Shown one piece after another: positions 1,036 to 43,488 of a stretch of DNA of 64,000 nt. Both the position numbers and the translations under genes were made by a program. How positions within the stretch are numbered: the stretch's first letter is position 1; the number at the start of each line of letters is the position of its first letter. The DNA is from Eledone cirrhosa (lineage: Eukaryota). The stretch lies in the NCBI GenBank assembly GCA_964016885.1, contig OZ024748.1, forward strand, positions 42,222,001 through 42,286,000. Direction: 5' to 3'. The notes under the pieces are model-generated. The model searched no databases. It had not been told where the DNA came from and worked only from the letters and a program-made list of their open reading frames with translations.

Positions 1036-1450
1036 ATATTATCCTTCTCTCTATTTCAGAGTCAACTCCCCATCATCATCACAGCTCTGGTGACAATATT
1101 GACCTCTCTATTTCAGAGTCAACTCCCCATCATCATCACAGCTCTGGTGACAATATTATCCTCTCTATTTCAGTCAACTCCCCATCATCATCACAGCTCT
1201 GGTGACAATATTATCCTCTCTATTTCAGTCAACTCCCCATCATCATCACAGCTCTGGTGACAATATTGACCTCTCTATTTCAGAGTCAACTCCCCATCAT
1301 CATCACAGCTCTGGTGACAATATTATCTTCTCTATTTCAGAGTCAACTCCCCATCATCATCACAGCTCTGGTGACAATATTATCCTCTCTATTTCAGAGT
1401 CAACTCCCCATCATCTGCATGGCTCTGTTCACTTTGGTGACAATATCCAG
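1036..1450 (+). repeat. 55-57 bp tandem repeat containing the ECD splice acceptor and exon start
   Basis: ctctctatttcag recurs ending at 1059, 1116, 1173, 1228, 1283, 1340 and 1397. Confidence 0.95.
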
Positions 1451-1515
1451 GATGAATGGTTTGTCGTTTACCTATTGTATCAGCTGACACAACATTTCTC
1501 GGGTCTAACCGCCAA
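1398..1515 (+). CDS. ECD: Ecdysoneless homologue, first exon in window
   Basis: ttttcag-type acceptor and AA|gtaagt donor; (E)STPHHLHGSVHFGDNIQDEWFVVYLLYQLTQHFSGLTAK matches the ECD FGDNIEDEWF motif. Confidence 0.9.
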
Positions 1516-1539
1516 GTAAGTTTATTATTATTATTATAA

Positions 1540-1757
1540 GGGCTGTGGATTGGCAGAATCGGTAGAGCGTCGGACACCATGCTTCGCGGCTTGGAGTGAT
1601 GTCCCTTTACAATCTGAGTTCAAATCCCGTCAAGGTTAGATTTGCCTTTCATCCTTACAGGGGTCGATAACATAAAGTACCAGTCACGCACTGGGGTCGA
1701 TTTAATCGACTTTCCCCCTCTCCAAAATTGCTGGCCTTGTGCCGAAAGGAGAAGCCA
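1540..1757 (+). mobile_element. tRNA-derived SINE family A (Nin/Deu-domain-like)
   Basis: A/B-box-like head (tggcagaatcgg, gagttcaaatcc) and core gcctttcatccttacggggtcgataaaataaagtaccag; many copies in the window. Confidence 0.8.
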
Positions 1758-2235
1758 TTATTAATATCATCATCATCATCATCATCATCCTCGTTTTACT
1801 AATTATTATTGTTGTAGACGGTGAGTGGTAGAACCACAAATGACAAAGGCTTAGAAGTCTATTTTTGCAGTAAGACATTGACTAAATATAAAGTATTACT
1901 GTCAAGATGGTGGTGGTGATGATGGTGGTGGTGGTGTCGGTAGTGGTGGTGTCGGTAGTGGTGGTGTCGGTGGTGGTGGTGCTGCCACCTTCCACCACCA
2001 CTGCCACCTCTTTATGTGTGTTCTACAATATATTGGTATAGTCTGAAAGACTAAATGCGTTGAAGAATCATACTTTGCTCATATGTTCCATATTTGGCAT
2101 AGTTGCTATAGATATGACCCTTTCATAATGCCAACCACTTTACAGAGTGTACAGGGTGCACTTTGTGGCTTGCTATATATATATATATAGATAGAGAGTT
2201 AGTTAGTTCCACAAACCTTGAACTATATATATAAT

Positions 2236-2720
2236 GGAGGCACATGGCTTAGTGGTTAGAGCATTGGCCTTGCAATCGAAAGGTTGTGAGTTCAATTCTC
2301 AGACCGGGTGATGTGTTGTTTCCTTGAGCAAGATACTTTATTTCACATTGCTCCAGTTTACTCAGCTGTAGAAATGAGATGATAGTGACTGGGGTCCCTA
2401 TCATTCCACTGCAAAGTAGTCGTGGAGGTGCCACGGCAAAAAAGCACCCAGCTAACACTGCAAAGTGGCCGTGTAGGCGCCACAGCAAAAAAGCACCCAG
2501 CCCACACTGCAAAGTGGTCGTGGAGGTGCCACGGCAAAAAAGCACCCAGCCCACACTGCAAAGAGGCCGTGCCGTGTAGGCGCCACGGCAAAAAAGCACC
2601 CAGAACTCACTGTAAATGAGGTTGGTGTTAGGAAGGGCATCCAGCTGTAGAAATCAAGCCAGAATCAGTTGCCGTCCCACCCTTGCAAGCAGGGAAAAAG
2701 TGGATGTAAAATGAAATGAA
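2236..2720 (+). mobile_element. tRNA-derived SINE family B (CORE-like) with RTE-type 3' tail
   Basis: tggcttagtggttagagc head, tccttgagcaag core, tail ttggtgttaggaagggcatccagc shared with RTE 3' ends; internal tandem repeats. Confidence 0.8.
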
Positions 2721-3469
2721 ATAAATATCTATATGTATCTTTTCCTGAACATGGAACCTCGTTCTTTCCCCAACTCTCACATACACACGCGCGCACACAC
2801 ACACACTTACACCTACACACATACACAAACACCACCTTCACCTCTCCCCGCTCGGACCCCCCCTCCCCTCCCTCTCCCAACTCCACCCGACACCACCCCT
2901 ACACGCCTCACACCCTTCCACCACTTGTTTATCTTTGTTTATTTTTATTTGTACCCCTTCCACCGTTCCCCCCCCCCTATTTTTTTTCTAAATGTCTCTC
3001 CACCACTCCCCCACACATCCTTGGAACTCTCTTCTTACCCACTTTTCTCCTGATGAAGGGCTTATGCCCGAAACGCCCCCCCCTTTCTCAAGAGCATGAA
3101 CCTAATAAACCTTTATTTGTACTTCCTCTCTGTTTTTGTTCCCGTCCAAGTTTTCACTATATATATATATATATATTACAAGGGCGGTGCCCCAGCATGG
3201 CCTCAGCCGGATGGCTGAAACAGGTAAAAGAGTATATATATATATATAATATAGTTCAAGGAGACAACAAACAGAGGTACAAAAAGTCTTATTAGTTTCA
3301 CGCTTTATATAGAAAAGGGGAAAGAAAGTTTGACATGTCGGGCTTGAGTTCTTCTTCAGGTGTACAAAATAGGGAGAAACATCAGTGGAGAGACAAAAAA
3401 AATCTAAAATGAAGATGGAAAATAGGACAACCATTATGTAGTCATGGTAACAAGCTGGAACGCCAAGTG

Positions 3470-4580
3470 GAGTGTGTGTGTTAGTGTCATTATATGTGTG
3501 TGTGTGTTAGTGTCATTATATGTGTGTGTGTTAGTGTCGTTATGTGTGTGTGTTAGTGTCGTTATATGTGTGTTAGTGTTATGTGTGTGTGTTAGTGTTG
3601 TTATATGTGTGTGTGTGTTAGTGTCATTATATGTGTGTGTTAGTGTCATTATATGTGTGTTAGTGTCATTATATGTGTGTTAGTGTCGTTATGTGTGTGT
3701 GTTAGTGTCGTTATGTGTGTGTGTTAGTGTCGTTATGTGTGTGTGTTAGTGTCGTTATGTGTGTGTGTTAGTGTCGTTATGTGTGTGTGTTAGTGTCGTT
3801 ATATGTGTGCGTTAGTGTTGTTATGTGTGCGTTAGTGTCGTTATGTGTGTGCATTAGTGTCGTTATGTGTGTGTTTTAGTGTTGTGTGTGTTAGTGTTAT
3901 GTGTGTGTGTGTGTTAGTGTCGTTATGTGTGTGTTAATGTCGTTATATGTGTGTGTGTTAGTCAGTATATGTGTGTGTGTTAGTGTCAGTATATGTGTGT
4001 GTGTGTTAGTGTCGTTGTGTGTGTGTTATTGTCGTTGTGTGTGTTAGTCAGTATATGTGTATGTGTTAGTGTCAGTATATATATATATATGTGTGTGTTA
4101 GTGTCAGTATATGTGTGTGTTACTGTCGTTTTATGTGTTAGTGTCAGTATATGTGTGTGTGTTAGTGTCGTTATGTGTGTGTGTTAGTGTCGTTAGATGT
4201 GTGTGTGTTAGTGTTATGTGTATGTGTTAGTGCCGTTATGTGTGTGTTAGTGTCAATATATGTGTGTGTGTTAGTCAGTATATGTGTGTGTTAGTGTCAG
4301 TATATGTGTGTGTGTTCGTGTCGTGTGTGTGTGTGTTAGTGTCGTTGTGTGTGTGTTAGTCAGTATATGTGTGTGTGTTAGTGTCAATATATGTGTATGT
4401 GTTAGTCAGTATATGTGTGTGTGTTAGTGTCAGTATATGTGTGTTAGTGTCGTTATGTGTGTGTTAATGTCAGTATATGTGTGTTAATGTCAGTATATGT
4501 GTGTTAGTGTCAGTATATGTGTGTTAGTGTCAGTACATGTGTGTGTGTTAGTGTCGTTATATGTGTGAGTGTATGTTTAA
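3470..4580. repeat. (TG)n-ttagtgtcgtta compound minisatellite
   Basis: Visible tandem units of about 20-25 bp. Confidence 0.95.
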
Positions 4581-4994
4581 ATGTGTGATTTTTACAGGTA
4601 TATTGTGTAAAGTAAGAAAGATAGTGTGTGTATGCATATACGCATGTGTTAGTGGTAGTAGACATGTATGTGTGAGTGAATGTAAGTTTGAATGTGTGTT
4701 GCAGTAATTATGTGTGTGTGTGTGTGTAAAGTATCGGTGAATTGAGTGAGAGAAAAGAATTTGTCAGTTGATGGATTATTTTTGCCAATATTTTCTGTGT
4801 GTTGATTGCTGTCAACTGGACAAAACAGATTAGTGTTATTTCATATAACCTATGACATGGAACCTAGCTTCCTGATTGATGTATTCTGCTATTTCTGGTA
4901 GCTTTTATTTTAAAAAAAGAGCCCAAAATATTTTCTGACATGTTATCCTACGATGTACAACTAAAACCTGTAGTCAAACATGTTTTAGGTTTTA

Positions 4995-5400
4995 TTAATC
5001 CTTTTCATAGCAAACTGTTTGAAACCATCCCACCCCTGGATCTATAATACTAAACTTTGTTTTAAACTGTTTATCATCATCATCATAACTCTTTAAAGTC
5101 CATTTTCTATACTAGCAGGGGTCTGACAAGTTGTCCGACTGTGAGACAAGTCAGATCAGGTGACCATGTCTTACTCATACAGAACTGTTGCTTGCTTTGC
5201 TTCTATGGCTGGATGTCCTTCCTAACACCAACCACTTTACAGTTTATATTTATTTAAAATTCTTCCATCATAAATTTATATGAGAACCTTAATGTTCTAA
5301 AGTTAGTTACTACACCAAATTCTTGATTATTTTACAAATTGATTTCACAATCATAGACAGTGGCTTTCATTAGAAATATGGTAATGAAAGGGTTAATGAC
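4995..5400. mobile_element. piggyBac-like MITE with a nested SINE/RTE tail fragment
   Basis: ttaatcctttt ... aaagggttaa termini; related to 24293-24590 and 42920-43139. Confidence 0.55.
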
Positions 5401-5865
5401 ATAGACAGTGTCTTTCATTAGAAATATGGTAATGAAAGGGTTAATGACATAGACAGTGTCTTTCATTAGAAATATGGTAATGAAAGGGTTAATGACATAG
5501 ACAGTGCCTTTCATTAGAAATATGGTAATGAAAGGGTTAATGACATAGACAGTGTCTTTCATTAGAAATATGGTAATGGAAGGGTTAATGACATAGACAG
5601 TGACTTTCATTAGAAATATGGTAATGAAAGGGTTAATGACATAGACAGTGACTTTCATTAGAAATATGGTAATGAAAGGGTTAATGACATAGACAGTGTC
5701 TTTCATTAGAAATATGGTAATGAAAGGGTTAATGACATAGACAGTGCCTTTCATTAGAAATATGGTAATGAAAGGGTTAATGACATAGACAGTGCCTTTC
5801 ATTAGAAATATGGTAATGAAAGGGTTAATGACATAGACAGTGTCTTTCATTAGAAATATGGTGAT
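5350..5865. repeat. 48 bp tandem repeat, about 10.5 copies
   Basis: Unit gacatagacagtgtctttcattagaaatatggtaatgaaagggttaat. Confidence 0.95.
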
Positions 5866-6113
5866 GTTTGGTGAGATTTATATCAAGATATTTATTTATA
5901 AATAATTGATTTTGATAAGTCCCAATAAGAGACGAAACGATCGTCAATCAATATTTAATGTTAAAACCTATTTGGTAATAGGTTTAGTGAATAATTTGCT
6001 TCATGTGTAATTATTATATTTAACACAATAGGATTTTGTACACATGTTTGTTTGAAAAATCTTTCAAAGAAGTATGAAACAGTCTTTTGTAGTGTTTATT
6101 ATAATAAATTAAA

Positions 6114-6300
6114 GGGCGGTGGATTGGCAGTATCGGTAGAGGGTCGGACGCTATGCTTTGCAGCATAGTTACGTCCCTTTACGGACTGATTTCAAATCCC
6201 GCCGAGGTTAACTTTGCCTTTCATCCTTACGTGGTCGATAAAATAAAGTACCAGTAATGCACTGGGTAATTGCTGGCCTTGTGCCAAAAGTAGAAACAAT
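6114..6300 (+). mobile_element. SINE family A
   Basis: Full-length match to other copies. Confidence 0.8.
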
Positions 6301-6429
6301 TATAATAAAGTATTGTATTTTGAGGTGTTTTAACTTCTCCACCTACCCCCTTCCAATTTTTATACTGTTTTTGTAGAAAATAATATATTTTCCATATATG
6401 TGTATATATATGTATATATATATATATAC

Positions 6430-6833
6430 CCTTCAATGCAAAGTTATGTTGGTGCCACAACATCCAGGCCGAAACAAACGAGATCGTGTAGGTGTCACGA
6501 CAAAAAACACACAGTCCACGCTGTAATGTGGCCGTGTAGGCAACACGGTAAAAACCTCCCAGTCCCACACTGTAAATGTGGTTGGTGTTAGGAAGGGCAT
6601 CCAGCTGTAGAAAACACGCCAGACAGTCCACGCTGTAATGTGGCCGTGTAGGCAACACGGTAAAAACCTCCCAGCCCCACACTGTAAATGTGGTTGGTGT
6701 TAGGAAGGGCATCCAGCTGTAGAAAACCCGCCAGACAGTCCTATGCGAGCAAGACAATCACTCTTGCCTCAAGTGGGAAAACCCCCGTCCAAACCCATCC
6801 AAGCATGGAACAGGGACGTTAAACGATGATGAT
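6430..6833 (+). mobile_element. RTE LINE 3' UTR fragment with internal duplication
   Basis: Matches 9215-9506 and 52910-53335; ends ggacgttaaacgatgatgat. Confidence 0.8.
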
Positions 6834-7107
6834 ATATATATATATATATATATATAGATATATAGATAGAAGTGGTTACACAACAGTTGGTTCACCATAC
6901 CGAGAACAATTGTTTCACCTTAGCGGATCCTCAGCTCGTAATGCTGTGTTCTACCACTATATATATATAAATGACTTCTACATGACTAGGACTGTTTCAT
7001 TCGTATAAAAGCATATATAGGAAAATGTATGACCCCGACGGCAGAGATCAAACCGTTTCGACAGCTATTTCTGGACTAAATTAGAATGTTATATATATAT
7101 ATATATG

Positions 7108-7140
<33 letters not shown>

Positions 7141-7895
7141 GAGAAGTATATAAAGGAGAACAAACCGTTAAAACATGTTTATTTAAAACAGCATATATAT
7201 ATATATAGCAGCTTTGAGTGGCATCGCATAAGCTGATTAGTTTGAGCCAGAAGTTAGTTATAATGATGATGATGTTGATGGTGATGATGTTACCACTACT
7301 ACAACTATCATCACCATTACCACGACCACCACTAACAACAACAACAACAACAAAACTAAATATTTAAGCTAGAAAGTAAAAAGAAAGAAACTCCACCCCC
7401 TAAAGAACAGCATCAAATGTTCAACAGTGATTCTTTAAAGCTGCTGTATTTAAAATGGCTGCTGTATTTAAAACAGTCTTCTTCTGTAGTGTGAAGAAGT
7501 TATTAATAACAGTATTGACTCTTACAAGATCAATAATAGCTTCAGATAACGACAGAGGTGTAAAAATAAGTAAAAATTTCTAGAAAATGCAGTGAAGATG
7601 GCTGACAGAATAAGAAGCTGTGATATTCTGTATGAGTAAGATTATATATATATATCTGTGTGTGTAATATGCATATTACATATATATATATATGTATATA
7701 TATATATGTATGTAATATGCAAATAAAGTTTGTACAGCTGTTGCTGTTTTAACAGCTAGTTCCAGATTCCTGGTACTTGCTGTTGAAACAGAAATCAGGC
7801 CCGACTGTTTATAATATAGTCACACTCTACTATCCCAAGTATTGAGTACTCTGTTGAATAATGGTCTAAATAGTTAAATACTGGGTTTAATCTTG

Positions 7896-8130
7896 ATGGC
7901 TTAGTGGTTAGATCATTGAGCTTACAATCGGGAGGTTGTAAGTTTGATTCTCAGGCCAGGTGATGCGTTGCGTTCTTGAGCAAAACTTTATTTCAAGTTG
8001 CTCCAGTTTACTCAGGTGTAGAAATGAGTTACGACGTCACTGGTGCCAAGCTGTATTCTGAGGCTTGTGCCTCGGAAGGGAAGTTTCTAGGTGCAAAACC
8101 ATGGTCATTTGTGACTGAAGGAGGCCTACG
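7896..8130 (+). mobile_element. SINE family B variant
   Basis: tRNA-like head and CORE-like body. Confidence 0.7.
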
Positions 8131-8374
8131 ATATATTTATATATATATTCAATACTGGAATTGAATAATCAAAACCGTAGCGGTATGTCACATATCAAAT
8201 CTCATATTTTGTCTGATGAAAACGTACTTAAACACCACTGTACCTTTGAAATATGTATAATAAAATATATATTTTGATTATGAGAATATTTTTCATTTAA
8301 CATTTTGAATAATATATGTATATATACAACCGGTACTGGCATTGATAAATATGCTGGGTCCGTCAACTCCTTAT

Positions 8375-8423
<49 letters not shown>

Positions 8424-8425
<2 letters not shown>

Positions 8426-9506
8426 CTAACTAAGAATATAGATTTTATATGTGGCCAGTGCTCTGGTGCAATAAGTAGCAGCAAATGCCCATACAATACT
8501 AGCTCATTCCATTGCCCAGATGGTTCTATAGAAATAGTGGACACCTTCCGTTACCTGTGTGACAAAATCAGCTGTGGTGGAGGGTGCTCTGAAAGTACAG
8601 TAGCTAGAGTCCGAACGGGATGGAAAAAGTTCAGAGAGCTTATACCACTATTGGCCGCTAAAGGTTTCTCTCTAAAAATGAAAGGCCGACTGTATGATGC
8701 CTGCATACGAACAGCAATGTTACATGGCAGTGAGACTTGGGCATTGTGTGCAGAGGATACGCAGACTGGAGAGGAACGAAGCTTGCATGCTCCATTGGAT
8801 GTGTAATAGTAATATATGTGAACGGCAAAGCATAAATGAACTAAGTGAGAAATTAGGAATAAGAGGGATCAGATGCTGTTTACTCGAGAGAAGACTACGT
8901 TGGTATGGTCACGTGATACGCATGAAAGACGACAGCTGTATAAAAAAGTGCAGGGCGATCAAAATAGACGGTAGCCACGGATTAGGCAGACCCAGAAAAA
9001 CCTGGGATGACTTGATAAAATCCAACCTCACACACTTACACCTCTCCAAGACAATGTCACTGGGCCGAGATCTTTGGCGATACGTAGTAATACAGAAGAC
9101 CCGTCTTGCCTAAGTACAAAGCGAAACCTACTGTCAGTAGGCACCTCTTAACCAAAATAACCCCCCCCCCCCATCCCACTACCCTTACCCCCCACCGCCA
9201 TCTACACAACCCCTTTCGATTGTAAAGCTATGTTGGTACCACAATGTCCAGTCCTAAATAAACGAGGTTGTGTAGCTGTCGCGACAAAAAAAAAAACACA
9301 GTCCACGCTGTAATGTGGCCATGTAGGTAACACGGTAAAAACCTCCCAGTCCACACTGTAAACGTGGTTGGTGTTAGGAAGGGCATCCAGCCATAGAAAA
9401 CCTGCCAGACAGTACTGACCAAGACAACCAATCTTGCCTCAAGTGGGACAATTCCCGTCCAGACCCTTGCTAGTGTGGAAGATGGACGTTAAGCGATGAT
9501 GATGAT
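8424..9506 (+). mobile_element. 5'-truncated, frameshifted RTE-clade LINE
   Basis: FRYL.DKIS, AMLHGSETW, RRLRWYGHVIRM, GRPRKTW motifs; (ATG)n tail. Confidence 0.9.
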
Positions 9507-10096
9507 ATATATTATAAAATGACAGGAGGCTGGACTGGTGTAATTCCTTAAAGATTTATTATACTATAAACATTTCAATGACGGGGTTCAGCATGAATCT
9601 GGTGAGATCATCAGGTATTACGGAATTTATCGAATAAAGAAATATAATAATAGACACAATCCAAGGGGCTCTAAAGTAGATAGAAATGTTTAAGACCTGA
9701 AGGCGGCCAAAATTAGCAGTTGCTTGGTAGATAGGTAGATAGATATCTATATATGTGTGTATAGCAACATAAAATGAGCCAGATATATTCTGTTATGACA
9801 TTGTATAGGCTGTGTTAATAGCTTTTCTCAGATGATTCTTTACAAGATTGGAAGAAGACTTGAGAGTTGTGAATGAGAATGCTGGTAACCATCTTGAGTG
9901 TTGCCAGAGTGTCTTATGTTATCTATGGAGGCGGGATGGTGTGTTATTACAATAACATGTATCACCCCCCCATCCTCCCACCTCAACAAATATTTTATTT
10001 CATTGTTGATGTTGTTGTTGGTCTTGTTGGTGGTGGTGGTGATGTTCGTTTGTTGTTGTTAGTAATGTTGATGGTGTTGATGCTGTTGATTGTGTT

Positions 10097-13000
10097 GGTG
10101 TAAGACCTAGAGAGTTGTTGTAAGACCTAGAGTTGTTGTTGTAAGACCTAGAGTTGTTGTTGTAAGACCTAGAGTTGTTGTTGTAAGACCTAGAGTTGTT
10201 GTTGTAAGACCTAGAGTTGTTGTTGTAAGACCTAGAGTTGTTGGTGTAAGACCTAGAGTTGTTGTTGTAAGACCTAGAGTTGTTGTTGTAAGACCTAGAG
10301 TTGTTGTTGTAAGACCTAGAGTTGTTGTTGTAAGACCTAGAGTTGTTGTTGTAAGACCTAGAGTTGTTGTTGTAAGACCTAGAGTTATTGTTGTAAGACC
10401 TAGAGTTATTGTTGTAAGACCTAGAGTTATTGTTGTAAGACCTAGAGTTATTGTTGTAAGACCTAGAGTTATTGTTGTAAGATCTAGAGTTGTTGTTGTA
10501 AGACCTAGTTATTGTTGTAAGACCTAGAGTTGTTGTTGTAAGACCTAGTTATTGTTGTAAGACCTAGAGTTATTGTTGTAAGACCTAGTTATTGTTGTAA
10601 GACCTAGAGTTGTTGTTGTAAGACCTAGAGTTGTTGTTGTAAGACCTAGAGTTGTTGTTGTAAGACCTAGAGTTGTTGTTGTAAGACCTAGAGTTGTTGT
10701 TGTAAGACCTAGAGTTGTTGTTGTAAGACCTAGAGTTGTTGTTGTAAGACCTAGAGTTGTTGTTGTAAGACCTAGAGTTGTTGTTGTAAGACCTAGAGTT
10801 GTTGTTGTAAGACCTAGAGTTGTTGTTGTAAGACCTAGAGTTGGTGTTGTAAGACCTAGAGTTGGTGTTGTAAGACCTAGAGTTGGTGTTGTAAGACCTA
10901 GAGTTGTTGTTGTAAGACCTAGAGTTGGTGTTGTAAGACCTAGAGTTGGTGTTGTAAGACCTAGAGTTGGTGTTGTAAGACCTAGAGTTGGTGTTGTAAT
11001 ACCTAGAGTTGTTGTTGTAAGACCTAGAGTTGTTGTTGTAAGACCTAGAGTTGTTGTTGTAAGACCTAGAGTTGTTGTTGTAAGACCTAGAGTTGTTGTT
11101 GTAAGACCTAGAGTTGTTGTTGTAAGACCTAGAGTTGTTGTTGTAAGACCTAGAGTTGTTGTTGTAAGACCTAGAGAGTTGTTGTAAGACCTAGAGAGTT
11201 GTTGTAAGACCTAGAGAGTTGTAAGACCTAGAGAGTTGTAAGACCTAGAGAGTTGTTGTAAGACCTAGAGTTGTTGTAAGACCTAGAGTTGTTGTAAGAC
11301 CTAGAGTTGTTGTAAGACCTAGAGTTGTTGTAAGACCTAGAGTTGTTGTAAGACCTAGAGTTGTTGTAAGACCTAGAGTTGTTGTAAGACCTAGAGTTGT
11401 TGTAAGACCTAGAGTTGTTGTAAGACCTAGAGTTGTTGTAAGACCTAGAGAGTTGTTGTAAGACCTAGAGAGTTGTTGTAAGACCTAGAGAGTTGTTGTA
11501 AGACCTAGAGAGTTGTTGTAAGACCTAGAGAGTTGTTGTAAGACCTAGAGAGTTGTTGTAAGACCTAGAGAGTTGTTGTAAGACCTAGAGAGTTGTTGTA
11601 AGACCTAGAGAGTTGTTGTAAGACCTAGAGTTGTTGTAAGACCTAGAGTTGTTGTAAGACCTAGAGTTGTTGTAAGACCTAGAGTTGTTGTAAGACCTAG
11701 AGTTGTTGTAAGACCTAGAGTTGTTGTAAGACCTAGAGTTGTTGTAAGACCTAGAGTTGTTGTAAGACCTAGAGTTGTTGTAAGACCTAGAGAGTTGTTG
11801 TAAGACCTAGAGAGTTGTTGTAAGACCTAGAGTTGTTGTAAGACCTAGAGTTGTTGTAAGACCTAGAGTTGTTGTAAGACCTAGAGTTGTTGTAAGACCT
11901 AGAGTTGTTGTAAGACCTAGAGAGTTGTTGTAAGACCTAGAGAGTTGTTGTAAGACCTAGAGAGTTGTTGTAAGACCTAGAGAGTTGTTGTAAGACCTAG
12001 AGAGTTGTTGTAAGACCTAGAGAGTTGTTGTAAGACCTAGAGAGTTGTTGTAAGACCTAGAGAGTTGTTGTAAGACCTAGAGAGTTGTTGTAAGACCTAG
12101 AGAGTTGTTGTAAGACCTAGAGAGTTGTTGTAAGACCTAGAGAGTTGTTGTAAGACCTAGAGAGTTGTTGTAAGACCTAGAGAGTTGTTGTAAGACCTAG
12201 AGAGTTGTTGTAAGACCTAGAGAGTTGTTGTAAGACCTAGAGAGTTGTTGTAAGACCTAGAGAGTTGTTGTAAGACCTAGAGAGTTGTTGTAAGACCTAG
12301 AGAGTTGTTGTAAGACCTAGAGAGTTGTTGTAAGACCTAGAGAGTTGTTGTAAGACCTAGAGAGTTGTTGTAAGACCTAGAGAGTTGTTGTAAGACCTAG
12401 AGAGTTGTTGTAAGACCTAGAGAGTTGTTGTAAGACCTAGAGTTGTTGTAAGACCTAGAGTTGTTGTAAGACCTAGAGTTGTTGTAAGACCTAGAGTTGT
12501 TGTAAGACCTAGAGAGTTGTTGTAAGACCTAGAGAGTTGTTGTAAGACCTAGAGTTGTTGTAAGACCTAGAGTTGTTGTAAGACCTAGAGTTGTTGTAAG
12601 ACCTAGAGTTGTTGTAAGACCTAGAGTTGTTGTAAGACCTAGAGTTGTTGTAAGACCTAGAGTTGTTGTAAGACCTAGAGTTGTTGTAAGACCTAGAGTT
12701 GTTGTAAGACCTAGAGTTGTTGTAAGACCTAGAGAGTTGTTGTAAGACCTAGTGTTGTTGTAAGACCTAGTGTTGTTGTAAGACCTAGTGTTGTTGTAAG
12801 ACCTAGAGTTGTTGTAAGACCTAGAGTTGTTGTAAGACCTAGAGTTGTTGTAAGACCTAGAGTTGTTGTAAGACCTAGAGTTGTTGTAAGACCTAGAGTT
12901 GTTGTAAGACCTAGAGTTGTTGTAAGACCTAGAGTTGTTGTAAGACCTAGAGTTGTTGTAAGACCTAGAGTTGTTGTAAGACCTAGAGTTGTTGTAAGAC

Positions 13001-16000: not shown

Positions 16001-16052
16001 ACCTAGAGAGTTGTTGTAAGACCTAGAGTTGTTGTAAGACCTAGAGTTGTTG
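10097..16052. repeat. 6 kb satellite of 18/20/21 bp units gtaagacctag(ag)agttgtt(gtt)
   Basis: About 300 highly homogeneous copies inside an ECD intron. Confidence 0.98.
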
Positions 16053-16503: not shown

Positions 16504-16535
<32 letters not shown>

Positions 16536-16544
16536 CATCATCAT

Positions 16545-16878
16545 TTCATTTTACGTCTGCTTTTCCCTGCTTGCAAGGGGGGGGGGGGGGGGGAACGGGA
16601 ACTGATTCTGGCTTGATTTCTCCAGCTGGATGCTCTTCCTAACACCAACCTCATTTACAGTGAGTGCTGGGTGCTTTTTTGCCGTGGCACCTCCACGACC
16701 ACTTTGCAGTGGAATGATAGGGACCCCAGTCCCTATCATCTCATTTCTACAGCTGAGTAAACTGGAACAATGTGAAATAAAGTCTCTTGCTCAAGGAAAC
16801 AACACATCACCAGGTCTGAGAATTGAACTCACAACCTTTCGATTGCAAAGCTCTAACCACTAAGCCATGTGCCTCCAT
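16545..16878 (-). mobile_element. SINE family B
   Basis: Near-identical inverted copy of 2236-2720. Confidence 0.85.
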
Positions 16879-16964
16879 CACATAAATATAAATGGAAAAG
16901 AATGAAATGAAATTTCATTTCTCACTCTTAGTACGGCTGATACCTAAATATAAGTATGAATACT

Positions 16965-17056
16965 TACATACATATATGTGTACAGACGTACAGTAGTATG
17001 TATATATATATACATACTACTGTACGTCTGTACACATATGTGTGTGTATATATATA

Positions 17057-17087
<31 letters not shown>

Positions 17088-17478
17088 ATATGTGTGTGTG
17101 TGTATGTGTGTGTGTGTGTATATATATATATGTGTGTGTATATATATGTGTGTGTATATATATATATATGTGTATGTGTGTGTGTATAAGTGTGTGTGTG
17201 TGTATGTATATATGTGCGTGTGTGTGTGTGTGTATATAAATGTGTGTATATATATGTGTGTATATATGTGTGTGTGTGTATATATGTGCGTACGTGTGTG
17301 TATATATGTGCGTACGTGTGTGTATATATGTGCGTACGTGTGTATGTGCGTGTGTGTGTGTATGTGCGTGTGTGTGTGTGTGTATATATATGTGTATGTG
17401 TGTGTGTATGTGTGTATATATATGTGTATGTGTGTGTGTATATATATGTGTATGTGTGTGTGTGTGTGTATATATATC
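16965..17478. repeat. (TG)n/(TA)n microsatellite field
   Basis: Directly visible. Confidence 0.95.
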
Positions 17479-18024
17479 AAAATGAAAATCCGAAGGCAAG
17501 GTAAAATTCCAATCATTTAATCACGACACGTTTCAATAAGAGATAGATCGATTGTGAAGCCATGATCGATTATCACTGATCTCACCAGGTGAAAATGAAT
17601 TGTCTTCAAATTCTTGATATGAGGGAGAAAATATAACGATGTTCTCTCACAGAATTCATTCCCTCATATGGAGACACACCACTCAGTCAGAGACATGGCG
17701 ACTGCTATTAGCTTTAGTTGAGGTCATAAAAGTTTTCAGATTTCTCTCGCTGCAAAAGACGCTGGACATCAATCAAATCCGTAGGGATACAGTCAGTCAC
17801 AGTTAAAGCGAGTGGGTACACACACACTCCACACCCACACACAGCGGCTCGAGGTCAAAGAAAAATATATACAGATATAGACACACATCAACACAGTATT
17901 AAACCTGGAGAGCCAGTGTGGGTGGGTACACACACACTTTCACCGAAGCGATGTCCGAGAAAAAACAAATATAAGAATGTACCAACACAGCACTCCCCGA
18001 AAGTTAGTTCACAAAGCGATTGTG

Positions 18025-18055
<31 letters not shown>

Positions 18056-18088
18056 ATGTGTGTGTGTGTGTGTATATATATATATGTG

Positions 18089-18127
<39 letters not shown>

Positions 18128-18610
18128 GGAGGCACATGGCTTAGTGGTTAGAGCATTGGCCTTGCAATCGAAAGGTTGTGAGTTCAATTCTCAGACCGGG
18201 TGATGTGTGTTTTCTAAATTTAAGACAGTAGGGAGAGGTGTGATATGGGGGAGAGTTAGCTGCTGTTTCTAGCAGGTTTATTCCGAGTTCCTAAAGGAAG
18301 TTTGTAAGGAAGGGGTTTAAGCGTATATAAGAGAAAGTTGCAGCATGTATGTAGCTTTATCGAATTTTAAGGGGAGTAGAAAGAGGAAATTAAATTGCAT
18401 TAGAGGGGTAAAGCATCATGTATTTAGTTTTATCGATTATTTCTGTAATTGTGGGTGAGTTGAAAAAAATAAATAGTCGTTGACCTAAGTTAAACCATTT
18501 ACAACATTCTTACAGACTTTGAGTCGAATCGGTTTGAAATTGTGCAAATGTATAAACATGGAACATGCACACACACACACACCACAACAATCTGCCTTTT
18601 ATAGATAATG

Positions 18611-18641
<31 letters not shown>

Positions 18642-19051
18642 TACATACGTGTGTATGTGTGTGTTTTCTCACTCTCCCAATATTGATCCTTAAGGAATTC
18701 TACCAATCAATTCAACCAATCAATTCAATACAACCATTGTAAACCATGGTCAGTAAACTCTGACCAATAACTTATTTACTGAAAACAATGAGAACCAGTA
18801 GCTTTGTTTGGTGGTGTGACTGTGGTGGTGGTGGTGACTGGTGGTGATGGGGACAATATCAGGATGTAGTAGCAGTAGAGGTGGTGGTAGCAGTAGTAGT
18901 AGAGGTGGTGGTAGTAGTAGTAGAGGTGGTAGTGTTAGTAGAAGTAGTAGAGGTGGTGGTAGTAGTAAAGGTGGTGGTAGCAGTAGTAGTAGTAGTCATA
19001 GTTAAAATTAATATATATTATATTGTGTTAGAAATGACTGTTTTGCCCTCC

Positions 19052-19241
19052 TTTAGTGGATTCCCAGTATCGGTAGAGGGTCGGACGCCTTGCTTTGATG
19101 CATAGAGTTACGGCCCTTGCCATTCTGAGTTCAAATCCCACCGAGGTTAACTTTGCCTTTCATCCTTACAGGGTCGATAAAATAAAGTACCAGTAATGTA
19201 CTGGGTAATTGCTGGCCTCGTGCCAAAAGTAGAAACAATTA
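19052..19241 (+). mobile_element. SINE family A
   Basis: Match to other copies. Confidence 0.8.
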
Positions 19242-19312
19242 TTTAATAAAACTTAACTCAGTGATAAATGTCTGATTTTTTTTTTTAATGGTTTCTGTAA
19301 TGTTTTTTCCAG

Positions 19313-19400
19313 AGTTAGTGACAATGATGAAGAGTTTCTTCTCATTGAGGCAGCCGATGTCCTTCCTGAATGGCTTAATCCTACCACTTCTGAGAACAGA
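19313..19400 (+). CDS. ECD: ECD exon
   Basis: ttttccag|A ... AGA|gtaaga; VSDNDEEFLLIEAADVLPEWLNPTTSENR matches the DNDGEFLLIEAA motif; phase fits the previous exon across a 17.8 kb intron. Confidence 0.93.
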
Positions 19401-19472
19401 GTAAGATATCTTTATATTTCTGAGAACTGAGTCTTTATATTACATTTGGTGGCTGTCATTTCTCATAAGAAG

Positions 19473-19700
19473 TTCTTCTTCTTCTCCTCCGACTCATACC
19501 TGAGAGGGTTATGGAAGTCAGAGTCCTCAAACGTTCCCTCCAGTGGGTCCTGTCAGAAACAACTGTCTCCAACTGATCCAGTTGGATTCCCATGAGAAAG
19601 ACCAGCCAAGCTCATGGATGTGATCCAACCATCTTGCTCGGGGTCTACCCCTGGGTCTCTTGCCGGTTGGTTTTGCCTGTAAAATCTGTCCAGTTATTTT
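19473..19700 (-). mobile_element. RTE-like LINE 3' fragment, second family, (GAA)n tail
   Basis: KPTGKRPRGRPRARWLD; a second copy at ~49943-50170. Confidence 0.75.
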
Positions 19701-19704
19701 TTCA

Positions 19705-19728
19705 GACACACAAACACAAACGCACGCA

Positions 19729-19760
<32 letters not shown>

Positions 19761-20190
19761 CACACACTCACACACTCACTCACTCACTCACTCACTCACT
19801 CACTCACTCACTCACTCACTCACTCACTCACTCACTCACAGATACTCACTCACTCACACACACACACACAGATACTCACTCACTCACACACACACACAGA
19901 TACTCACTCACTCACTCACACACACACAGATACTCACACACACAGATACTCACTCACTCACACACACACACAGATACTCACTCACTCACACACACACACA
20001 GATACTCACTCACTCACACACACACACAGATACTCGCTCACACACACACACAGATACTCACTCACTCACTCACACACAGATACTCACTCACTCACACACA
20101 CACACACACACACACACACAGATACTCACTCACACACACACACACACACACAGATACTCACACACACACAGATACATACACACACACACG
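19705..20190. repeat. (CA)n/(CACT)n/cagatact compound repeat
   Basis: Directly visible. Confidence 0.95.
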
Positions 20191-20267
20191 CTGTTGTTTC
20201 TAATGAGTATTCTAATAGTATCACACACAAATGGCTGACCATCTTCCTTATATTAACATTTTTTCAG

Positions 20268-20446
20268 ATATTGATTAAAGATGGTGAACTACATATAATA
20301 CCAATGCCAACAACCTCCAAAGATTTAGATTGGTTACCATTGTTTACACCAACTCTTAAAGAAGCAATTCAAGCCATACATCAGCATTCCAGTGAAACTA
20401 TTGCATCACCAGGAATACAGAAGGTCATAAAACAGCGACTAGAGTG
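20268..20446 (+). CDS. ECD: ECD exon
   Basis: ttttcag|ATA ... TG|gtaagt; ILIKDGELHIIPMP...IQKVIKQRLE. Confidence 0.9.
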
Positions 20447-20870
20447 GTAAGTTATTTTAACAGTGACTAGAATAGTTATTTTTAACAGTTTAACAGTGAT
20501 TAGAATAGTTATTTTTAACATCGACTAGAACAGTTATTTTTAACAGTTTAACAGTGATTAGAATAGTTATTTTTAACATCGACTAGAACAGTTATTTTTA
20601 ACAGTTTAACAGTGATTAGAATAGTTATTTTTAATAGTTTAACAGTGGCTGTAATAGTTATTTTTAATAGTTTAGCTGTTTAACAATGACTAGAATATTT
20701 ATTTTTAACAGTTTAACAAACTATAATAGTTATTTTTAACATTTTACAACAACTAGAATGGTTATTTTTAATAGTTTAGCAGTGACTATAATAGTTATTC
20801 TTAACAGTGACTAGAGTAGTTATTTTTAATAGTTTAACAGTGACTATAATAGTTATTTTTAATAGTTTAA
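20430..20870 (+). repeat. Degenerate tandem repeat beginning in the exon end/donor
   Basis: aacagcgactagagtggtaagttatttt followed by copies of aacagtgactagaatagttattttt. Confidence 0.85.
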
Positions 20871-21023
20871 GAGAGAGAGAGAGAGAGAGATCACTGTTAG
20901 CAGAGAACATTTTTGACAGATCTTCCTAGCAGTTGTGTGACAGACTGACTAAAAGGCTGTATATACTAGAATCTCGATTCCACATTTCCCAGAAATAAAT
21001 GAAATAATAATTTATCTTTGCAG

Positions 21024-21165
21024 TTACCCAGAGAAAATTACAAAAGACTTTCACTCCGCCTATTGTTATATTCCTGCTGGTTTAGCTGCAGCTTTAACAC
21101 AACGTCCGTCTCTTATAGCTGCTGGTGTTAATGCCTTTTATTACAGAACTCCTGAGGATTTGAAG
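21024..21165 (+). CDS. ECD: ECD exon
   Basis: tttgcag|T ... AAG|gtcagt; YPEKITKDFHSAYCYIPAGLAAALTQRPSLIAAGVNAFYYRTPEDLK. Confidence 0.92.
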
Positions 21166-21384
21166 GTCAGTCTAACCCTTTTTGTTACTGTATTACTAGT
21201 TAAGGGCCAGTTTAACCCCTTTTGTTACTGTATTATCAGTGAAGGGAGAGTCTAACTCGTTTTGTTACTGTATTACTAGTGTCTTGGGATATTTAGGTTT
21301 TTAGCATAAGATCTGGGAGATTATCAGAATACTGGGCTAATCTGTTCAGTTACTTATTGATGTTTTTTCGGGGTTATTTTTCAG

Positions 21385-21435
21385 GCTTGTCGCTCCTTCC
21401 GTTATTTTCGTCCAGGAACAAGAGTGATGACTCTG
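21385..21435 (+). CDS. ECD: ECD exon
   Basis: ttttcag|GCT ... CTG|gtaagt; ACRSFRYFRPGTRVMTL. Confidence 0.88.
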
Positions 21436-21615
21436 GTAAGTTATATTTTCTCTATTTTCTGGTATAATGTCCATTTTCCCTGTTATCCCTGATTCACAAA
21501 TGTTGATCTGTTGTCCATGAAGAACTAGGGTTGACCTCCTCGAGATATTTGGAAAAAAAATCTAAAATTTTGGGTGCAAAAAATGAGTCAACTTTTAAAG
21601 GAATTTATGTGGTAA

Positions 21616-21995
<380 letters not shown>

Positions 21996-22079
21996 TATTT
22001 ATTTCTTCTGCACAAAATTATTTTTTACTTCAAAACAATTACTGTACATTCTAATGTATAAGTTGATTTTATCTTCTAG

Positions 22080-22217
22080 GCTCATGGTTTTGAAATCCTT
22101 TGTTCCAAGTGTAGAAATCCTAACCTTCAAAATGGAGAAAATAATGCCAACAAGAACATACCTGATGTTAGATTGGAGCGGTTTATATCAACGCTCACTG
22201 ATAAAGGATACTTTAAG
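22080..22217 (+). CDS. ECD: ECD exon
   Basis: ttctag|GCT ... AAG|gtgagt; AHGFEILCSK...FISTLTDKGYFK. Confidence 0.92.
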
Positions 22218-22785
22218 GTGAGTTGACATATTCTTGCTTAACAGGATTCAGCGAACATTTTACTTGAAAATGGCTTTCAGTCTCTTATTTCCACCATTTT
22301 AATACCTACCCACCAAACACCAACCATGTCTGGTTCATTAAACAAACCACCCATTAAACAAATCACCCCTTAAATAAACCACCCATTAAATAAACCACCA
22401 ATTAAACAAACCACCCATTAAATAAACCACAAATTACCCCTCCCCCCCACACAAACCACCCATTAAACAAACTGCCCATTTTAAAAGGTTCCTGTTTAAA
22501 TTTAAATCTTCAAACATAATTATATATTAGAATAATGGAGTGGTCACACACACATACAGTGGTCACACACACATCTAAAGTGGTCACACTGTTGTCAGAC
22601 ATCTACTTTTGTCACACACATCTACTGTGGTCACACAAACCATGTTTGGAATGATCAGACCCTGAGTTAAACAACAACCTCCTGGCTATCTTTGAGGAGG
22701 GAACAAAAGCCCTACAATTAAGTTTTGATATTTCTACTAAACTATTTCCTTTCATCTTGTAATTTTATTGTTTTTATGTTTTCAG

Positions 22786-22871
22786 GGAGAACTTGAAGGG
22801 TCACTGCTCTACAATGAGAATTTGGAGAAAGCAAAACAATATTTCAAAGACAATCTTGATCACACTCCCTG
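22786..22871 (+). CDS. ECD: ECD exon
   Basis: ttttcag|GGA ... TG|gtaatt; GELEGSLLYNENLEKAKQYFKDNLDHTP. Confidence 0.9.
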
Positions 22872-22889
22872 GTAATTCTATTTTAACAC

Positions 22890-23830
22890 TACCATTTACA
22901 TTACTCTATATATACTATTGTATTCTCATGGTAAAGGCTTTACCTCGCATAATATCTCACATAACATTCACATTACTCTATATATACTATTGTATTTTCA
23001 CAGTAAAGGCTTTACCTCACATAATATCTCACATAATATTTACATTACTCTATATTTACTATTGTATTTTCACAGTAAAGGCTTTACCTCACATAACATT
23101 TACATTACTCTATATATACTATTGTATTTTTACAGTAAAGGCTTTACCTCACATAATATCTCACATAACATTCACATTACTCTATATATACTATTGTATT
23201 TTCACAGTAAAGGCTTTACCTCACATAATATCTCGCATAACATTTACATTACTCTATATTTACTATTCTATTTTCACAGTAAAGGCTTTACCTCACATAT
23301 CTCACATAATATTTACATTACTCTATATATACTATTGTATTTTCATAGTAAAGGCTTTACCTCACATAATATTCACATAACATTTACATTACTCTATATA
23401 TACTATTGTATTTTCACAGTAAAGGCTTTACCTCACATAATATCTCGCATAACATTTACATTACTCTATATATACTATTGTATTTTCACAGTAAAGGCTT
23501 TACCTCAAATAATATCTCACATAACATTTACATTACTCTATATATACTATTGTATTTTCACAGTAAAGGCTTTACCTCACATAATATCTCACATAACATT
23601 TACATTACTCTATATATACTATTGTATTTTCACAGTAAAGGCTTTACCTCAAATAATATCTCACATAACATTTACATTACTCTATATATACTATTGTATT
23701 TTCACAGTAAAGGCTTTACCTCACATAATATCGCACATATCGGAACTGAGATTTTGATATTTACTTTGAGAACAATATCTTAACATCAGTATGAGTGGCC
23801 GGTTACAGCTGGTTTGAACAGAAAGAGGTG
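22890..23830 (+). repeat. ~70 bp tandem repeat amplified inside a MITE
   Basis: The unit tttacattactctatatatactattgtattttcacagtaaaggctttacctcacataa is the body of the element at 43961-44167 and 63951-64000. Confidence 0.9.
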
Positions 23831-23836
23831 CTATTA

Positions 23837-24112
23837 TGCTGTTATTATGTCTTATACAGTACCACATGGTGTTATGTCTTACATGTTATGTCTTATACAG
23901 TACCACATGGTGTTGTGTTACATGTTATGTCTTATACAGTACACATGGTGTTATGTCTTACATGTTATGTCTTATACAGTACCACATGGTGTTATGTGTT
24001 ACATGTTATGTCCTATACAGTACCACATGGTGTTATGTGTTACATGTTATGTCTTATACAGTACCACATGGTGTTATGTGTTACAACATGTTATGTCTTA
24101 TACAGTGACACA
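23837..24112 (+). repeat. ~40 bp tandem repeat containing the ECD splice acceptor
   Basis: gttatgtcttatacag recurs about 7 times; the last copy is the true acceptor. Confidence 0.92.
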
Positions 24113-24209
24113 GAACAGTTGGGGCAAACAATGCTAGATTTAATTCACCAGACTCCTTACAGTATTGAGGAACTGCGGCTCCAAGAAGCGATACTCTCAC
24201 CAGAAGATG
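24106..24209 (+). CDS. ECD: ECD exon
   Basis: tatacag|T ... G|gtaaaa; DTEQLGQTMLDLIHQTPYSIEELRLQEAILSPED; phases fit both neighbours. Confidence 0.85.
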
Positions 24210-24665
24210 GTAAAAGAATTCTTTTATATTTGACATTTTAAAAACTTCATTGATCCTCTTTATTGTTGTAATCCTTTATGGGGACATTGCAATTAAACCC
24301 TTTTGTGATATTTCCAATAAAATACATTCTATCTCAATTAATGAATAATTTTGGGAGATTTATTAAAATTATTATTTCATTACTAAGATAACTTAACATG
24401 TGGTTCTTATATAAAATTATGTTGGAATATTTTAATATAAATAGTAACTCTGTAAAATGGGTGGGTTTTTTTTCATAAAACCAGGGCAGAGCTAGTGTGA
24501 AAAGGGTCAAATAAGAACACTTTAAAATGGGTGTTTTTTGTTTCGCAGAACCAGAGACATTTTTGGCTGGGTTGGTATCTAAAGAGTTAATGTTATTAAT
24601 ATCTTCATAAATAATTGACATATTCCACATTTGTGCATTTATAACATGTAATTTTGTATCAGTAA

Positions 24666-26577
24666 GTTAGTACACAAAAGTTGACACTTTAATATAAGGT
24701 CTATCTTTTATAGATGACTCTTAGCTGTTAGTCCACAAGAAGTTGACACTTTAATATAAGGTCTATCTTTTATAGATGACTCTTGGCTGTGTTAGTCCAC
24801 AAGAAGTTGACAGTTTAATATAAGGTCTATCTTTTATAGATTACTCTTGGCTGTGTTAGTCCACAAGAAGTTGACAGTTTAATATAAGGTCTATCTTTTA
24901 TAGATGACTCTTAGCTGTGTTAATCCACAAGAAGTTGACACTTTAATATAAGGTCTATCTTTTATAGTTGACTCTTAGCTGTGTTAGTCCACAAGGAGTT
25001 GACATTTTAATATAAGGTCTATCTTTTATAGATGACTCTTGGCTGTGTTAGTCCACAAGGAGTTGACACTTTAGTATAAGGTCTCTTTTATAGTTGACAC
25101 TTTAATATAAGGTCTAGCTTTTATAGATGACTCTTAGCTGTGTTAGTCCACAAGAAGTTGACACTTTAATATAAGGTCTATCTTTTATAGATGACTCTTA
25201 GCTGTGTTAGTCCACAAGAAGTTGACACTTTAATATAAGGTCTATCTTTTATAGTTGACTCTTAGCTGTGTTAGTCCACAAGGAGTTGACACTTTAGTAT
25301 AAGGTCTATCTTTTATAGATGACTCTTGGCTGTGTTAGTCCACAAGAAGTTGACAGTTTAATATAAGGTCTATCTTTTATAGATTACTGTTGGCTGTGTT
25401 AGTCCACAAGGAGTTGACACTTTAGTATAAGGTCTCTTTTATAGTTGACACTTTAATATAAGGTCTAGCTTTTATAGATGACTCTTAGCTTTGTTAGTCC
25501 ACAAGAAGTTGACACTTTAATATAAGGTCTATCTTTTATAGATGACACTTTAATATAAGGTCTATCTTTTATAGTTGACTCTTAGCTGTGTTAGTCCACA
25601 AGGAGTTGACACTTTAATATAAGGTCTATCTTTTATAGTTGACTCTTAGCTGTGTTAGTCCACAAGGAGTTGACACTTTAGTATAAGGTCTATCTTTTAT
25701 AGTTGACTCTTAGCTGTGTTAGTCCACAAGGAGTTGACATTTTAGTATAAGGTCTATCTTTTATAGATGACTCTTAGCTGTGTTAGTCCACAAGGAGTTG
25801 ACACTTTAGTATAAGGTCTCTTTTATAGTTGACACTTTAATATAAGGTCTAGCTTTTATAGATGACTCTTAGCTTTGTTAGTCCACAAGAAGTTGACACT
25901 TTAATATAAGGTCTATCTTTTATAGATGACACTTTAATATAAGGTCTATCTTTTATAGTTGACTCTTAGCTGTGTTAGTCCACAAGGAGTTGACACTTTA
26001 ATATAAGGTCTATCTTTTATAGTTGACTCTTAGCTGTGTTAGTCCACAAGGAGTTGACACTTTAGTATAAGGTCTATCTTTTATAGTTGACTCTTAGCTG
26101 TGTTAGTCCACAAGGAGTTGACATTTTAGTATAAGGTCTATCTTTTATAGATGACTCTTGGCTGTGTTAGTCCACAAGGAGTTGACACTTTAGTATAAGG
26201 TCTAGCTTTTATAGATGACTCTTAGCTTTGTTAGTCCACAAGAAGTTGACACTTTAATATAAGGTCTATCTTTTATAGATGACTCTTGGCTGTGTTAGTC
26301 CACAAGAAGTTGACAGTTTAATATAAGGTCTATCTTTTATAGATGACTCTTGGCTGTGTTAGTCCACAAGAAGTTGACAGTTTAATATAAGGTCTATCTT
26401 TTATAGATGACTCTTGGCTGTGTTAGTCCACAAGAAGTTGACAGTTTAATATAAGGTCTATCTTTTATAGATGACTCTTGGCTGTGTTAGTCCACAAGAA
26501 GTTGACAGTTTAATATAAGGTCTATCTTTTATTGTACAGATGACTCTTGGTTGTATGTTAGTCCACAAGAAGTTGAT
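24666..26577 (+). repeat. 64 bp tandem repeat containing the ECD acceptor and exon start, about 30 copies
   Basis: Unit tttaatataaggtctatcttttatag|atgactcttggctgtgttagtccacaagaagttgacag versus exon ATGACTCTTGGTTGTATGTTAGTCCACAAGAAGTTGA. Confidence 0.96.
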
Positions 26578-26708: not shown

Positions 26709-26879
26709 GTAAGTAATTTTTATCTGCTACTGTATATTGGCTGTGACCTGGAGAAGAGATGGGCTCCAACAGATTAAAAATATGCCCTAGAAACGACATA
26801 TGTCAATACACCACCCCTACGACTCCCTTAGCAGTTACGGGACCATAAATATTGACAGCATTTGTTTTGGTTCTCTACA

Positions 26880-43447: not shown

Positions 43448-43488
<41 letters not shown>

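What the first reader, a model, noticed from the sequence alone, without database searches (positions are those of the whole stretch)
1036..26577. Recurrent minisatellites built from the ECD gene's own splice junctions
Seen: at least five or six junctions of one gene are the terminal unit of a tandem array. These are the acceptors at 1397, 24105 and 26539, the donors at 20446 and 21165, and a two-copy echo at 19400. The extra copies always extend into the intron, leaving one intact exon edge. The units are unrelated to each other, so the events are independent. Inference: either a junction-biased amplification process (for example splicing or R-loop-coupled slippage) or a tolerated layer of decoy splice sites tuned by copy number. 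The genome is repeat-rich, so chance overlap filtered by selection is the null model.
Basis: partly seen in the sequence, partly recalled or inferred. Interest (0 to 1): 0.85.

Follow-up and report, generated by a model that had tools for sequence, protein, structure and literature searches.

The report
Splice-junction "mirage" repeats in octopus ECD
In an octopus ecdysoneless (ECD) gene, five exon edges have been copied in tandem into the neighbouring introns, a repeat type already known as "mirages" from lancelets; such copies are rarer than chance in a genome-wide sample, so these are likely harmless survivors in a repeat-dense stretch.

Summary
The observation mostly holds. In this octopod ECD gene, 5 of 26 splice junctions (acceptors 1398, 26540; donors 19400, 20446, 21165) lie in the terminal unit of a tandem duplication; the array at acceptor 24106 only abuts its exon. 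This is the known "mirage" type (lancelet genes, human F7 intron 7); this scan noted it before on other DNA. The polarity (copies only in the intron) follows from the geometry of duplication. ECD introns hold about five times the sample's array density, which predicts 1.3 to 3.4 junction hits; ECD is a mild, post hoc outlier. Donor copies have lost their consensus. One spliced contig uses the exon-proximal acceptor at 1398 and skips six intact decoys. By-product: array ends lie 2.3-fold more densely within 100 nt of exons (95% interval 1.5 to 3.3), cause unknown.

The parts
1398..31022 (+). ECD (ecdysoneless, SGT1 family) coding exons 2-14: 1398-1515, 19313-19400, 20268-20446, 21024-21165, 21385-21435, 21640-21768, 22080-22217, 22786-22871, 24106-24209, 26540-26708, 27541-27608, 28512-28693, 30675-31022. 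Exon 1 lies upstream of the window (L002 about 1126-1324)
   Evidence: the joints on both sides of exon 1398-1515 are confirmed by contig X4
1047..1415 (+). Acceptor mirage: 57/55-nt unit (about 17-20 nt intron end plus exon start with a 9-nt deletion), six intact AG decoys at 1060, 1117, 1174, 1229, 1284, 1341; only the last two are in frame and stop-free
   Evidence: a unit-to-unit joint is present in contigs of runs X1-X3
19384..19441 (+). Two-copy 30-nt echo of donor 19400; the copy lacks 7 nt of the donor consensus
   Evidence: (score 32)
20430..20870 (+). Donor mirage at 20446, 25-58-nt compound units, about 13 copies, none with the GTAAG donor (best copy scores 4.7 against 11.9 for the real site)
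21157..21281 (+). Donor mirage at 21165, 40-nt unit, 3 copies; both extra copies read GG in place of GT
   Evidence: (score 35)
23845..24106 (+). 41-nt array ending at acceptor 24106; six upstream AG copies, almost no exon sequence (abuts the junction)
   Evidence: (score 32)
24666..26576 (+). Acceptor mirage at 26540, 64-nt unit with about 36 exon bases, 28 copies; the copies keep AG but score below the real site (6.4 or less against 8.5)
40455..64000 (-). Neighbouring TRPM-like channel gene (continues about 130 kb beyond the window), used as internal control: 0 of 48 junctions duplicated at the strict threshold, 1 at the lenient one

Best explanation
Five ECD exon edges sit in tandem duplications that likely began as ordinary slippage or end-joining events in a minisatellite-dense region and likely persist because splicing still picks the copy next to the exon. 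Shown: the arrays and their anatomy, a local array density about five times the genome sample, depletion of junction-spanning duplications genome-wide, dead donor copies, and use of the exon-proximal acceptor at 1398 in one contig. Inferred: seeds form at short microhomologies and grow by unequal exchange; selection removes roughly half to 85% of seeds that cross a junction; exon definition favours the proximal acceptor and nonsense-mediated decay would clear most decoy products; ECD is the upper tail of this process.
For: Genome sample: 6 of 538 junctions against 13.1-21.3 expected; TRF 2 against 5.9, or 13.9 at the near-exon density. TRPM: 0 of 48 against about 4.4 (P 0.010). Arrays per kb of unique intron: ECD 2.31, TRPM 0.82, sample about 0.45. 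At ECD's local rate 2.8 strict or about 3.4 lenient hits are expected without selection. Five other ECD arrays stop 22-226 nt short of a junction. Contig X4 joins exon 1 to 1398 and 1515 to 19313; its remaining 1719 nt fit the 1684 nt of canonical downstream exons plus a short tail. Five database ECD proteins from three Octopus species show no insertion at these junctions. The 1398 seed has a 5-nt microhomology (chance 0.7%). The same structure is reported as silent in lancelets (PMC3087553, PMC3902484, passages) and human F7 (PMC1557585, abstract).
Against: ECD escapes the depletion: 3 of 26 against 2 of 179 junctions in equally array-dense loci (Fisher P 0.015). Five real cases against about 1.5 expected with depletion gives P 0.019, and against the plain genome rate P is about 1e-5. 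The first decoy at 1060 scores higher than the used acceptor (13.9 against 12.6) and at 24106 four of six copies outscore the real site, so site strength alone does not explain the choice. Microhomology is only 2 nt at 19400 and 21165; at 20446 the 5-nt value used the first unit's end, and the far end matches 4 of 5. The depletion may be partly mutational (exons are GC-richer). The 2.3-fold pile-up of array ends near exons is not explained by uniform seeding.
Confidence: 0.7

Rival explanations
1. Formation is biased towards exon edges: transcription- or splicing-coupled lesions (R-loops, paused polymerase, chromatin borders) seed duplications near junctions, selection then removes most that cross the junction, and ECD shows the raw bias.
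For: Array ends are 2.3-fold denser 6-100 nt from exons than 200-1200 nt away (37 in 34.4 kb against 110 in 235.5 kb; cluster bootstrap 1.5-3.3; the same with dispersed repeats kept). The excess stays 2.2-fold after GC matching and lies on both sides (26 donor, 22 acceptor). ECD has five cases.
Against: Junction-spanning cases are depleted, not enriched. The pile-up could also come from deletion of spacer DNA between arrays and constrained exon flanks, or from older DNA near exons. No data on expression or R-loops.
Confidence: 0.18
2. The copies are a functional decoy layer: ECD, a U5 snRNP assembly factor, would lower or tune its own output when splicing fidelity changes, with copy number as the dial.
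For: ECD delivers Prp8 to U5 snRNP and its loss lowers splicing fidelity (PMC7897482, abstract). Acceptor copies keep AG; most would give frameshifts or stops (4 of 6 at 1398, 4 of 6 at 24106, all scored copies at 26540).
Against: All donor copies are degraded. The one spliced contig laid uses the proximal acceptor. No inserted-repeat isoform among five database ECD proteins. Frame-breaking is what random unit lengths give.
Confidence: 0.07
3. The arrays are assembly artefacts.
For: Only part was checked against sequencing runs, and X1-X3 are one sample that may be the assembly's source. No laid piece spans the whole 1398 array.
Against: An 87-nt contig crossing a unit-to-unit joint of the 1398 array is in all three runs X1-X3. 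These runs hold 94% of the sampled words of 20200-22890, which includes two donor arrays. The units carry many private substitutions and indels (81-96% matches).
Confidence: 0.03

Closest known systems
Lancelet 'mirage' minisatellites (Adh3, globins BflGb6/BflGb9, troponin C, PGBD5); PMC3087553 and PMC3902484, passages read
   Same: Tandem repeats whose unit spans an exon-intron boundary, on either side; unit lengths 10-160 bp; many but not all copies keep AG/GT; no reported effect on splicing; mechanism called unclear.
   Different: Here in a cephalopod (my ten paper searches found no cephalopod case). Five junctions in one gene with up to 28 copies. Length polymorphism and somatic instability were not tested here. 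A genome-wide rate against a null is given here; the passages read give none.
Human F7 intron 7 37-bp VNTR; PMC1557585, abstract and section list read
   Same: The first unit spans the exon-intron boundary; the extra splice sites lie in the intron and stay silent.
   Different: F7 pseudo-donors are identical to the real one and usable when it is lost; the ECD donor copies are degraded, and the intact ECD decoys are acceptors, where a 5'-to-3' scan would pick the wrong copy.
Intron gain by tandem genomic duplication (Rogers model, as cited in PMC3087553; PMC4974935, search listing only)
   Same: Tandem duplication of a segment that holds splice signals.
   Different: No new intron or exon: exon structure and protein match other Octopus ECDs at these junctions.

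Membership tests
Mirage minisatellite | Tandem unit spans an exon-intron boundary | tested here: met
   Five junctions; 24106 only abuts
Mirage minisatellite | Minisatellite-sized unit (10-160 bp in the reported cases) | tested here: met
   Units of 25-64 nt
Mirage minisatellite | Many but not all copies keep AG/GT signals | tested here: met
   Acceptor copies keep AG, donor copies have lost the consensus
Mirage minisatellite | Normal mRNA is still made | tested here: met
   Direct at 1398 from one contig; for the other junctions only contig length and protein homology; rare isoforms are not visible in contigs
Mirage minisatellite | Copy-number instability between haplotypes or cells | not testable with these tools
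   No laid piece spans the array; the three DNA-like runs are one sample
Regulated decoy or poison splice sites | Measurable, regulated use of the decoy site | tested here: inconclusive
   None seen in the single spliced contig; no raw reads were listed
Regulated decoy or poison splice sites | Conservation across species | not testable with these tools
   No other cephalopod genome could be read; only proteins
Junction-targeted amplification process | Enrichment of arrays across junctions over intron background | tested here: not met
   6 of 538 against 13.1-21.3 expected; TRF 2 against 5.9

The most novel reading that the evidence does not exclude
Octopod minisatellites are born preferentially at exon edges (2.3-fold excess within 100 nt) by a transcription- or splicing-coupled process; selection removes up to about 85% of those that cross a junction; and ECD, a U5 snRNP assembly factor, keeps its acceptor copies as a fidelity-sensing, decay-coupled autoregulatory layer. 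The birth-bias part alone has a probability of about 0.25; the full reading with function is less likely.
Probability: 0.07. Interest if true: 0.75.

Novelty: new member of a known kind. Interest (0 to 1): 0.27.

Why it matters
As it stands this is a cephalopod example of a known oddity. It adds two useful things. First, a measured rate: junction-spanning duplications occur at about 1% of conserved junctions and are depleted against intron background, which argues against a targeting mechanism for mirages. Second, the 1398 array is a natural test of 3' splice-site choice: six near-identical upstream acceptors, one with a higher motif score and the native upstream intron, are passed over for the exon-proximal one, the acceptor-side counterpart of the F7 donor experiment. 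The excess of array ends next to exons is unexplained and would matter for repeat mutagenesis if a whole-genome count confirms it.

Tried and rejected
An ungapped duplication detector found only 1 of 26 ECD junctions, because the copies carry indels at the splice site; it was replaced by a gapped one. A first shuffle control gave 1.5% false positives because it shuffled microsatellite blocks; limited to clean intron blocks the rate is 0.09% at threshold 36 and 0.3% at 32. The TRPM 'hit' at 79604 was a mis-called donor; the motif-based call is 79646, 20 nt from the array, so that intron's two sites were dropped, leaving 48 of 50. The Pfam scan of single exons returned an error and gave no result. 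The run search listed no holder on record as RNA; X4 is taken as spliced RNA only because its contig joins exons. Places without contig cover are not evidence, and contig depth was not used as copy number. 'Donor copies are always dead' fails as a general rule: the donor copies at L187, L037, L030 and L282 keep GT. AT-richness does not explain the near-exon excess, and masking dispersed repeats does not change it. Paper searches: searches listed nothing on cephalopod junction repeats; one search listed the two lancelet papers; two searches listed nothing; one search covered ECD function. The original Adh3 mirage paper was not seen. No supplements were read; the alignments in PMC3087553's additional files could bear on the comparison of unit anatomy. 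No earlier notes exist for this genome.
Full report
Setting. The window is G000:C8:42222001-42286000 in a 3.0-Gb assembly. One exon is 90% identical to Octopus sinensis ecdysoneless, so the animal is an octopod. A spliced alignment of that protein to the window and its neighbouring stretches gives 14 coding exons and 26 junctions, all GT-AG. A TRPM-like gene runs on the minus strand from about 130 kb beyond the window to 40455.

Observation. Five junctions lie in the terminal unit of a tandem duplication: acceptor 1398 (57-nt unit, 6.5 copies), donor 19400 (30-nt, two copies), donor 20446 (compound units to 20870), donor 21165 (40-nt, three copies) and acceptor 26540 (64-nt, 28 copies). The 41-nt array before acceptor 24106 holds one sure exon base and abuts the junction. 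The units are unrelated because each comes from its own exon edge. That the extra copies lie in the intron is no sign of a mechanism: a tandem duplication across a junction always leaves one copy continuous with the exon, and if splicing uses that copy the others are intronic by definition (inference from geometry).

Reality. An 87-nt contig that crosses a unit-to-unit joint of the 1398 array is present in three runs of one sample. These runs hold 94% of the sampled words of 20200-22890. The arrays before 24106 and 26540 were not checked against runs.

Splice signals. A motif model trained on this genome (64 of 65 calls agreed with the spliced alignment, and the exception was probably the alignment's error; 56 of 58 adjacent exon pairs were phase-consistent) shows that the copies at all three donors are degraded, while acceptor copies keep AG. 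At 1398 the six decoys score 10.1-13.9 against 12.6 for the real site; four would shift the frame and two would add 19 or 38 stop-free codons. One 1997-nt contig of run X4 joins exon 1 to 1398 and 1515 to 19313; its remaining 1719 nt fit the 1684 nt of canonical exons down to the stop. Contigs drop rare forms, so this shows the main path only. Five database ECD proteins from three Octopus species have no insertion at these junctions.

Enrichment test. Seven Pfam searches of the genome listed 444 matches. I entered 332 of them, leaving out long intronless matches and those outside fetched DNA; 329 mapped to loci. Of 658 exon sides, 548 got a confident splice-site call, and 538 remained after removing near-identical paralogues and sites near locus ends; they fall in 165 clusters on 30 contigs. 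Among the 110 uncalled sides, three scored 32 or more and none looked like a junction copy by eye. The null is the chance that an intron position has a duplicate on the side away from the exon, given none towards it. At threshold 36, 6 of 538 junctions are duplicated against 21.3 expected from all intron DNA (P 1.5e-4) or 13.1 without dispersed repeats (P 0.048). At threshold 32 it is 10 against 25.1 (P 0.001) or 16.5 (P 0.13); at 44, 3 against 17.3 or 10.6 (P 0.012). TRF gives 2 against 5.9 (P 0.064). False positives on clean shuffled intron are 0.09% at 36. Junction-spanning duplications thus exist across the genome at about 1% of conserved junctions, for example a 17-copy 82-nt donor array in an aldehyde dehydrogenase gene (L187), and are fewer than intron background. 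The sample is limited to conserved enzyme and motor families.

Why ECD. Its unique intron DNA holds 2.31 arrays per kb against 0.82 in TRPM and about 0.45 in the sample. At the local rate, 3 of 26 strict hits is what chance gives (P 0.27-0.55); 6 of 26 lenient hits gives P 0.02-0.12; TRF gives 3 against 1.25 (P 0.13). TRPM, equally dense near its exons by the gapped detector, has 0 of 48 (P 0.010 for depletion). Against this reading, ECD lacks the depletion seen in other dense loci (3 of 26 against 2 of 179, P 0.015), and five cases against about 1.5 expected with depletion gives P 0.019. Since the gene was chosen for standing out in a 3-Gb genome, I read it as the tail of the distribution, but only a whole-genome count can settle that.

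By-product. TRF array ends are 2.3-fold denser 6-100 nt from an exon than 200-1200 nt away (cluster bootstrap 1.5-3.3; 2.3 with dispersed repeats kept). The excess is 2.2-fold after GC matching and lies on both donor and acceptor sides. The gapped detector shows the same peak at 40-100 nt. At the near-exon density about 14 junction-spanning arrays would be expected against 2 seen. The cause is open: biased birth near exons, loss of spacer DNA, or older DNA beside exons.

Mechanism. Most likely each array began as one duplication of 25-65 nt by slippage or end-joining. The 1398 seed has a 5-nt microhomology (chance 0.7%), 19400 and 21165 have 2 nt, and 20446 matches 4 of 5 at the far end. Growth by unequal exchange is inferred from the mosaic units. 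Survival needs splicing to keep the exon-proximal site. For donors this fits the first-come rule shown for human F7 (PMC1557585, abstract), aided here by decay of the copies. For acceptors, exon definition (118-nt exon against up to 456 nt) and decay of frameshifted products are the likely reasons (established knowledge, not tested here).

Known relatives. Earlier notes of this scan on other genomes gave the name 'mirage' and the F7 lead. I checked them in PMC3087553 and PMC3902484 (passages holding the word) and PMC1557585 (abstract and section list). The testable defining features are met, so this is a new member of that kind; my searches found no cephalopod report. ECD's role in U5 snRNP assembly (PMC7897482, abstract) makes autoregulation thinkable, but nothing here supports it.

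Verdict. Real, known in kind, not enriched at junctions genome-wide, likely silent. Interest 0.27, mainly for the measured depletion, the near-exon excess and the natural acceptor-choice test at 1398.

Noticed in passing
538 junctions in loci L021-L318: Minisatellite ends pile up 6-100 nt inside introns, 2.3-fold over 200-1200 nt, on both donor and acceptor sides and after GC matching. Unexplained.
   Followed up: partly
L187:153-1541 (G000:C18, aldehyde dehydrogenase gene, minus strand): A 17-copy, 98%-identical 82-nt array copying about 41 exon bases plus an intact donor: a cleaner donor mirage than any in ECD.
   Followed up: partly
L037, L030, L201 (myosins), L068 (kinesin), L282 (kinase): Older two- or three-copy junction duplications; the donor copies at L037, L030 and L282 keep GT.
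   Followed up: partly
window 10094-16046: A 6-kb satellite of 18-21-nt units (310 copies, 97% matches) with strong strand skew inside ECD intron 2.
   Followed up: no
window 55619-55636, minus strand: An 18-nt stretch between a strong acceptor-like and a strong donor-like motif in a phase-0 TRPM intron: candidate in-frame microexon, read by eye.
   Followed up: no
window 50976-51941, minus strand: A 48-nt, 20-copy array in the same TRPM intron ends about 4 nt from an acceptor-like motif followed by a stop codon; no matching protein segment was found.
   Followed up: no
window 48144-48469, 53106-53658, 58756-58882, about 47100-47210: Long near-perfect inverted repeats (141 nt at 98%, 205 nt at 95%, 56 nt at 91%) and a palindrome read by eye, several next to (TA)n runs.
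   Followed up: no
window about 8450-9100 and 53860-54800: Two related, opposite-strand stretches that look by eye like LINE retrotransposon remnants; label from recall, not tested.
   Followed up: no
window 22893-23739 and 39520-39640, 41308-41444, 43960-44160: The 72-nt unit of the array behind ECD donor 22871 resembles dispersed single copies near TRPM exons, so this array likely grew from a dispersed repeat (read by eye).
   Followed up: no
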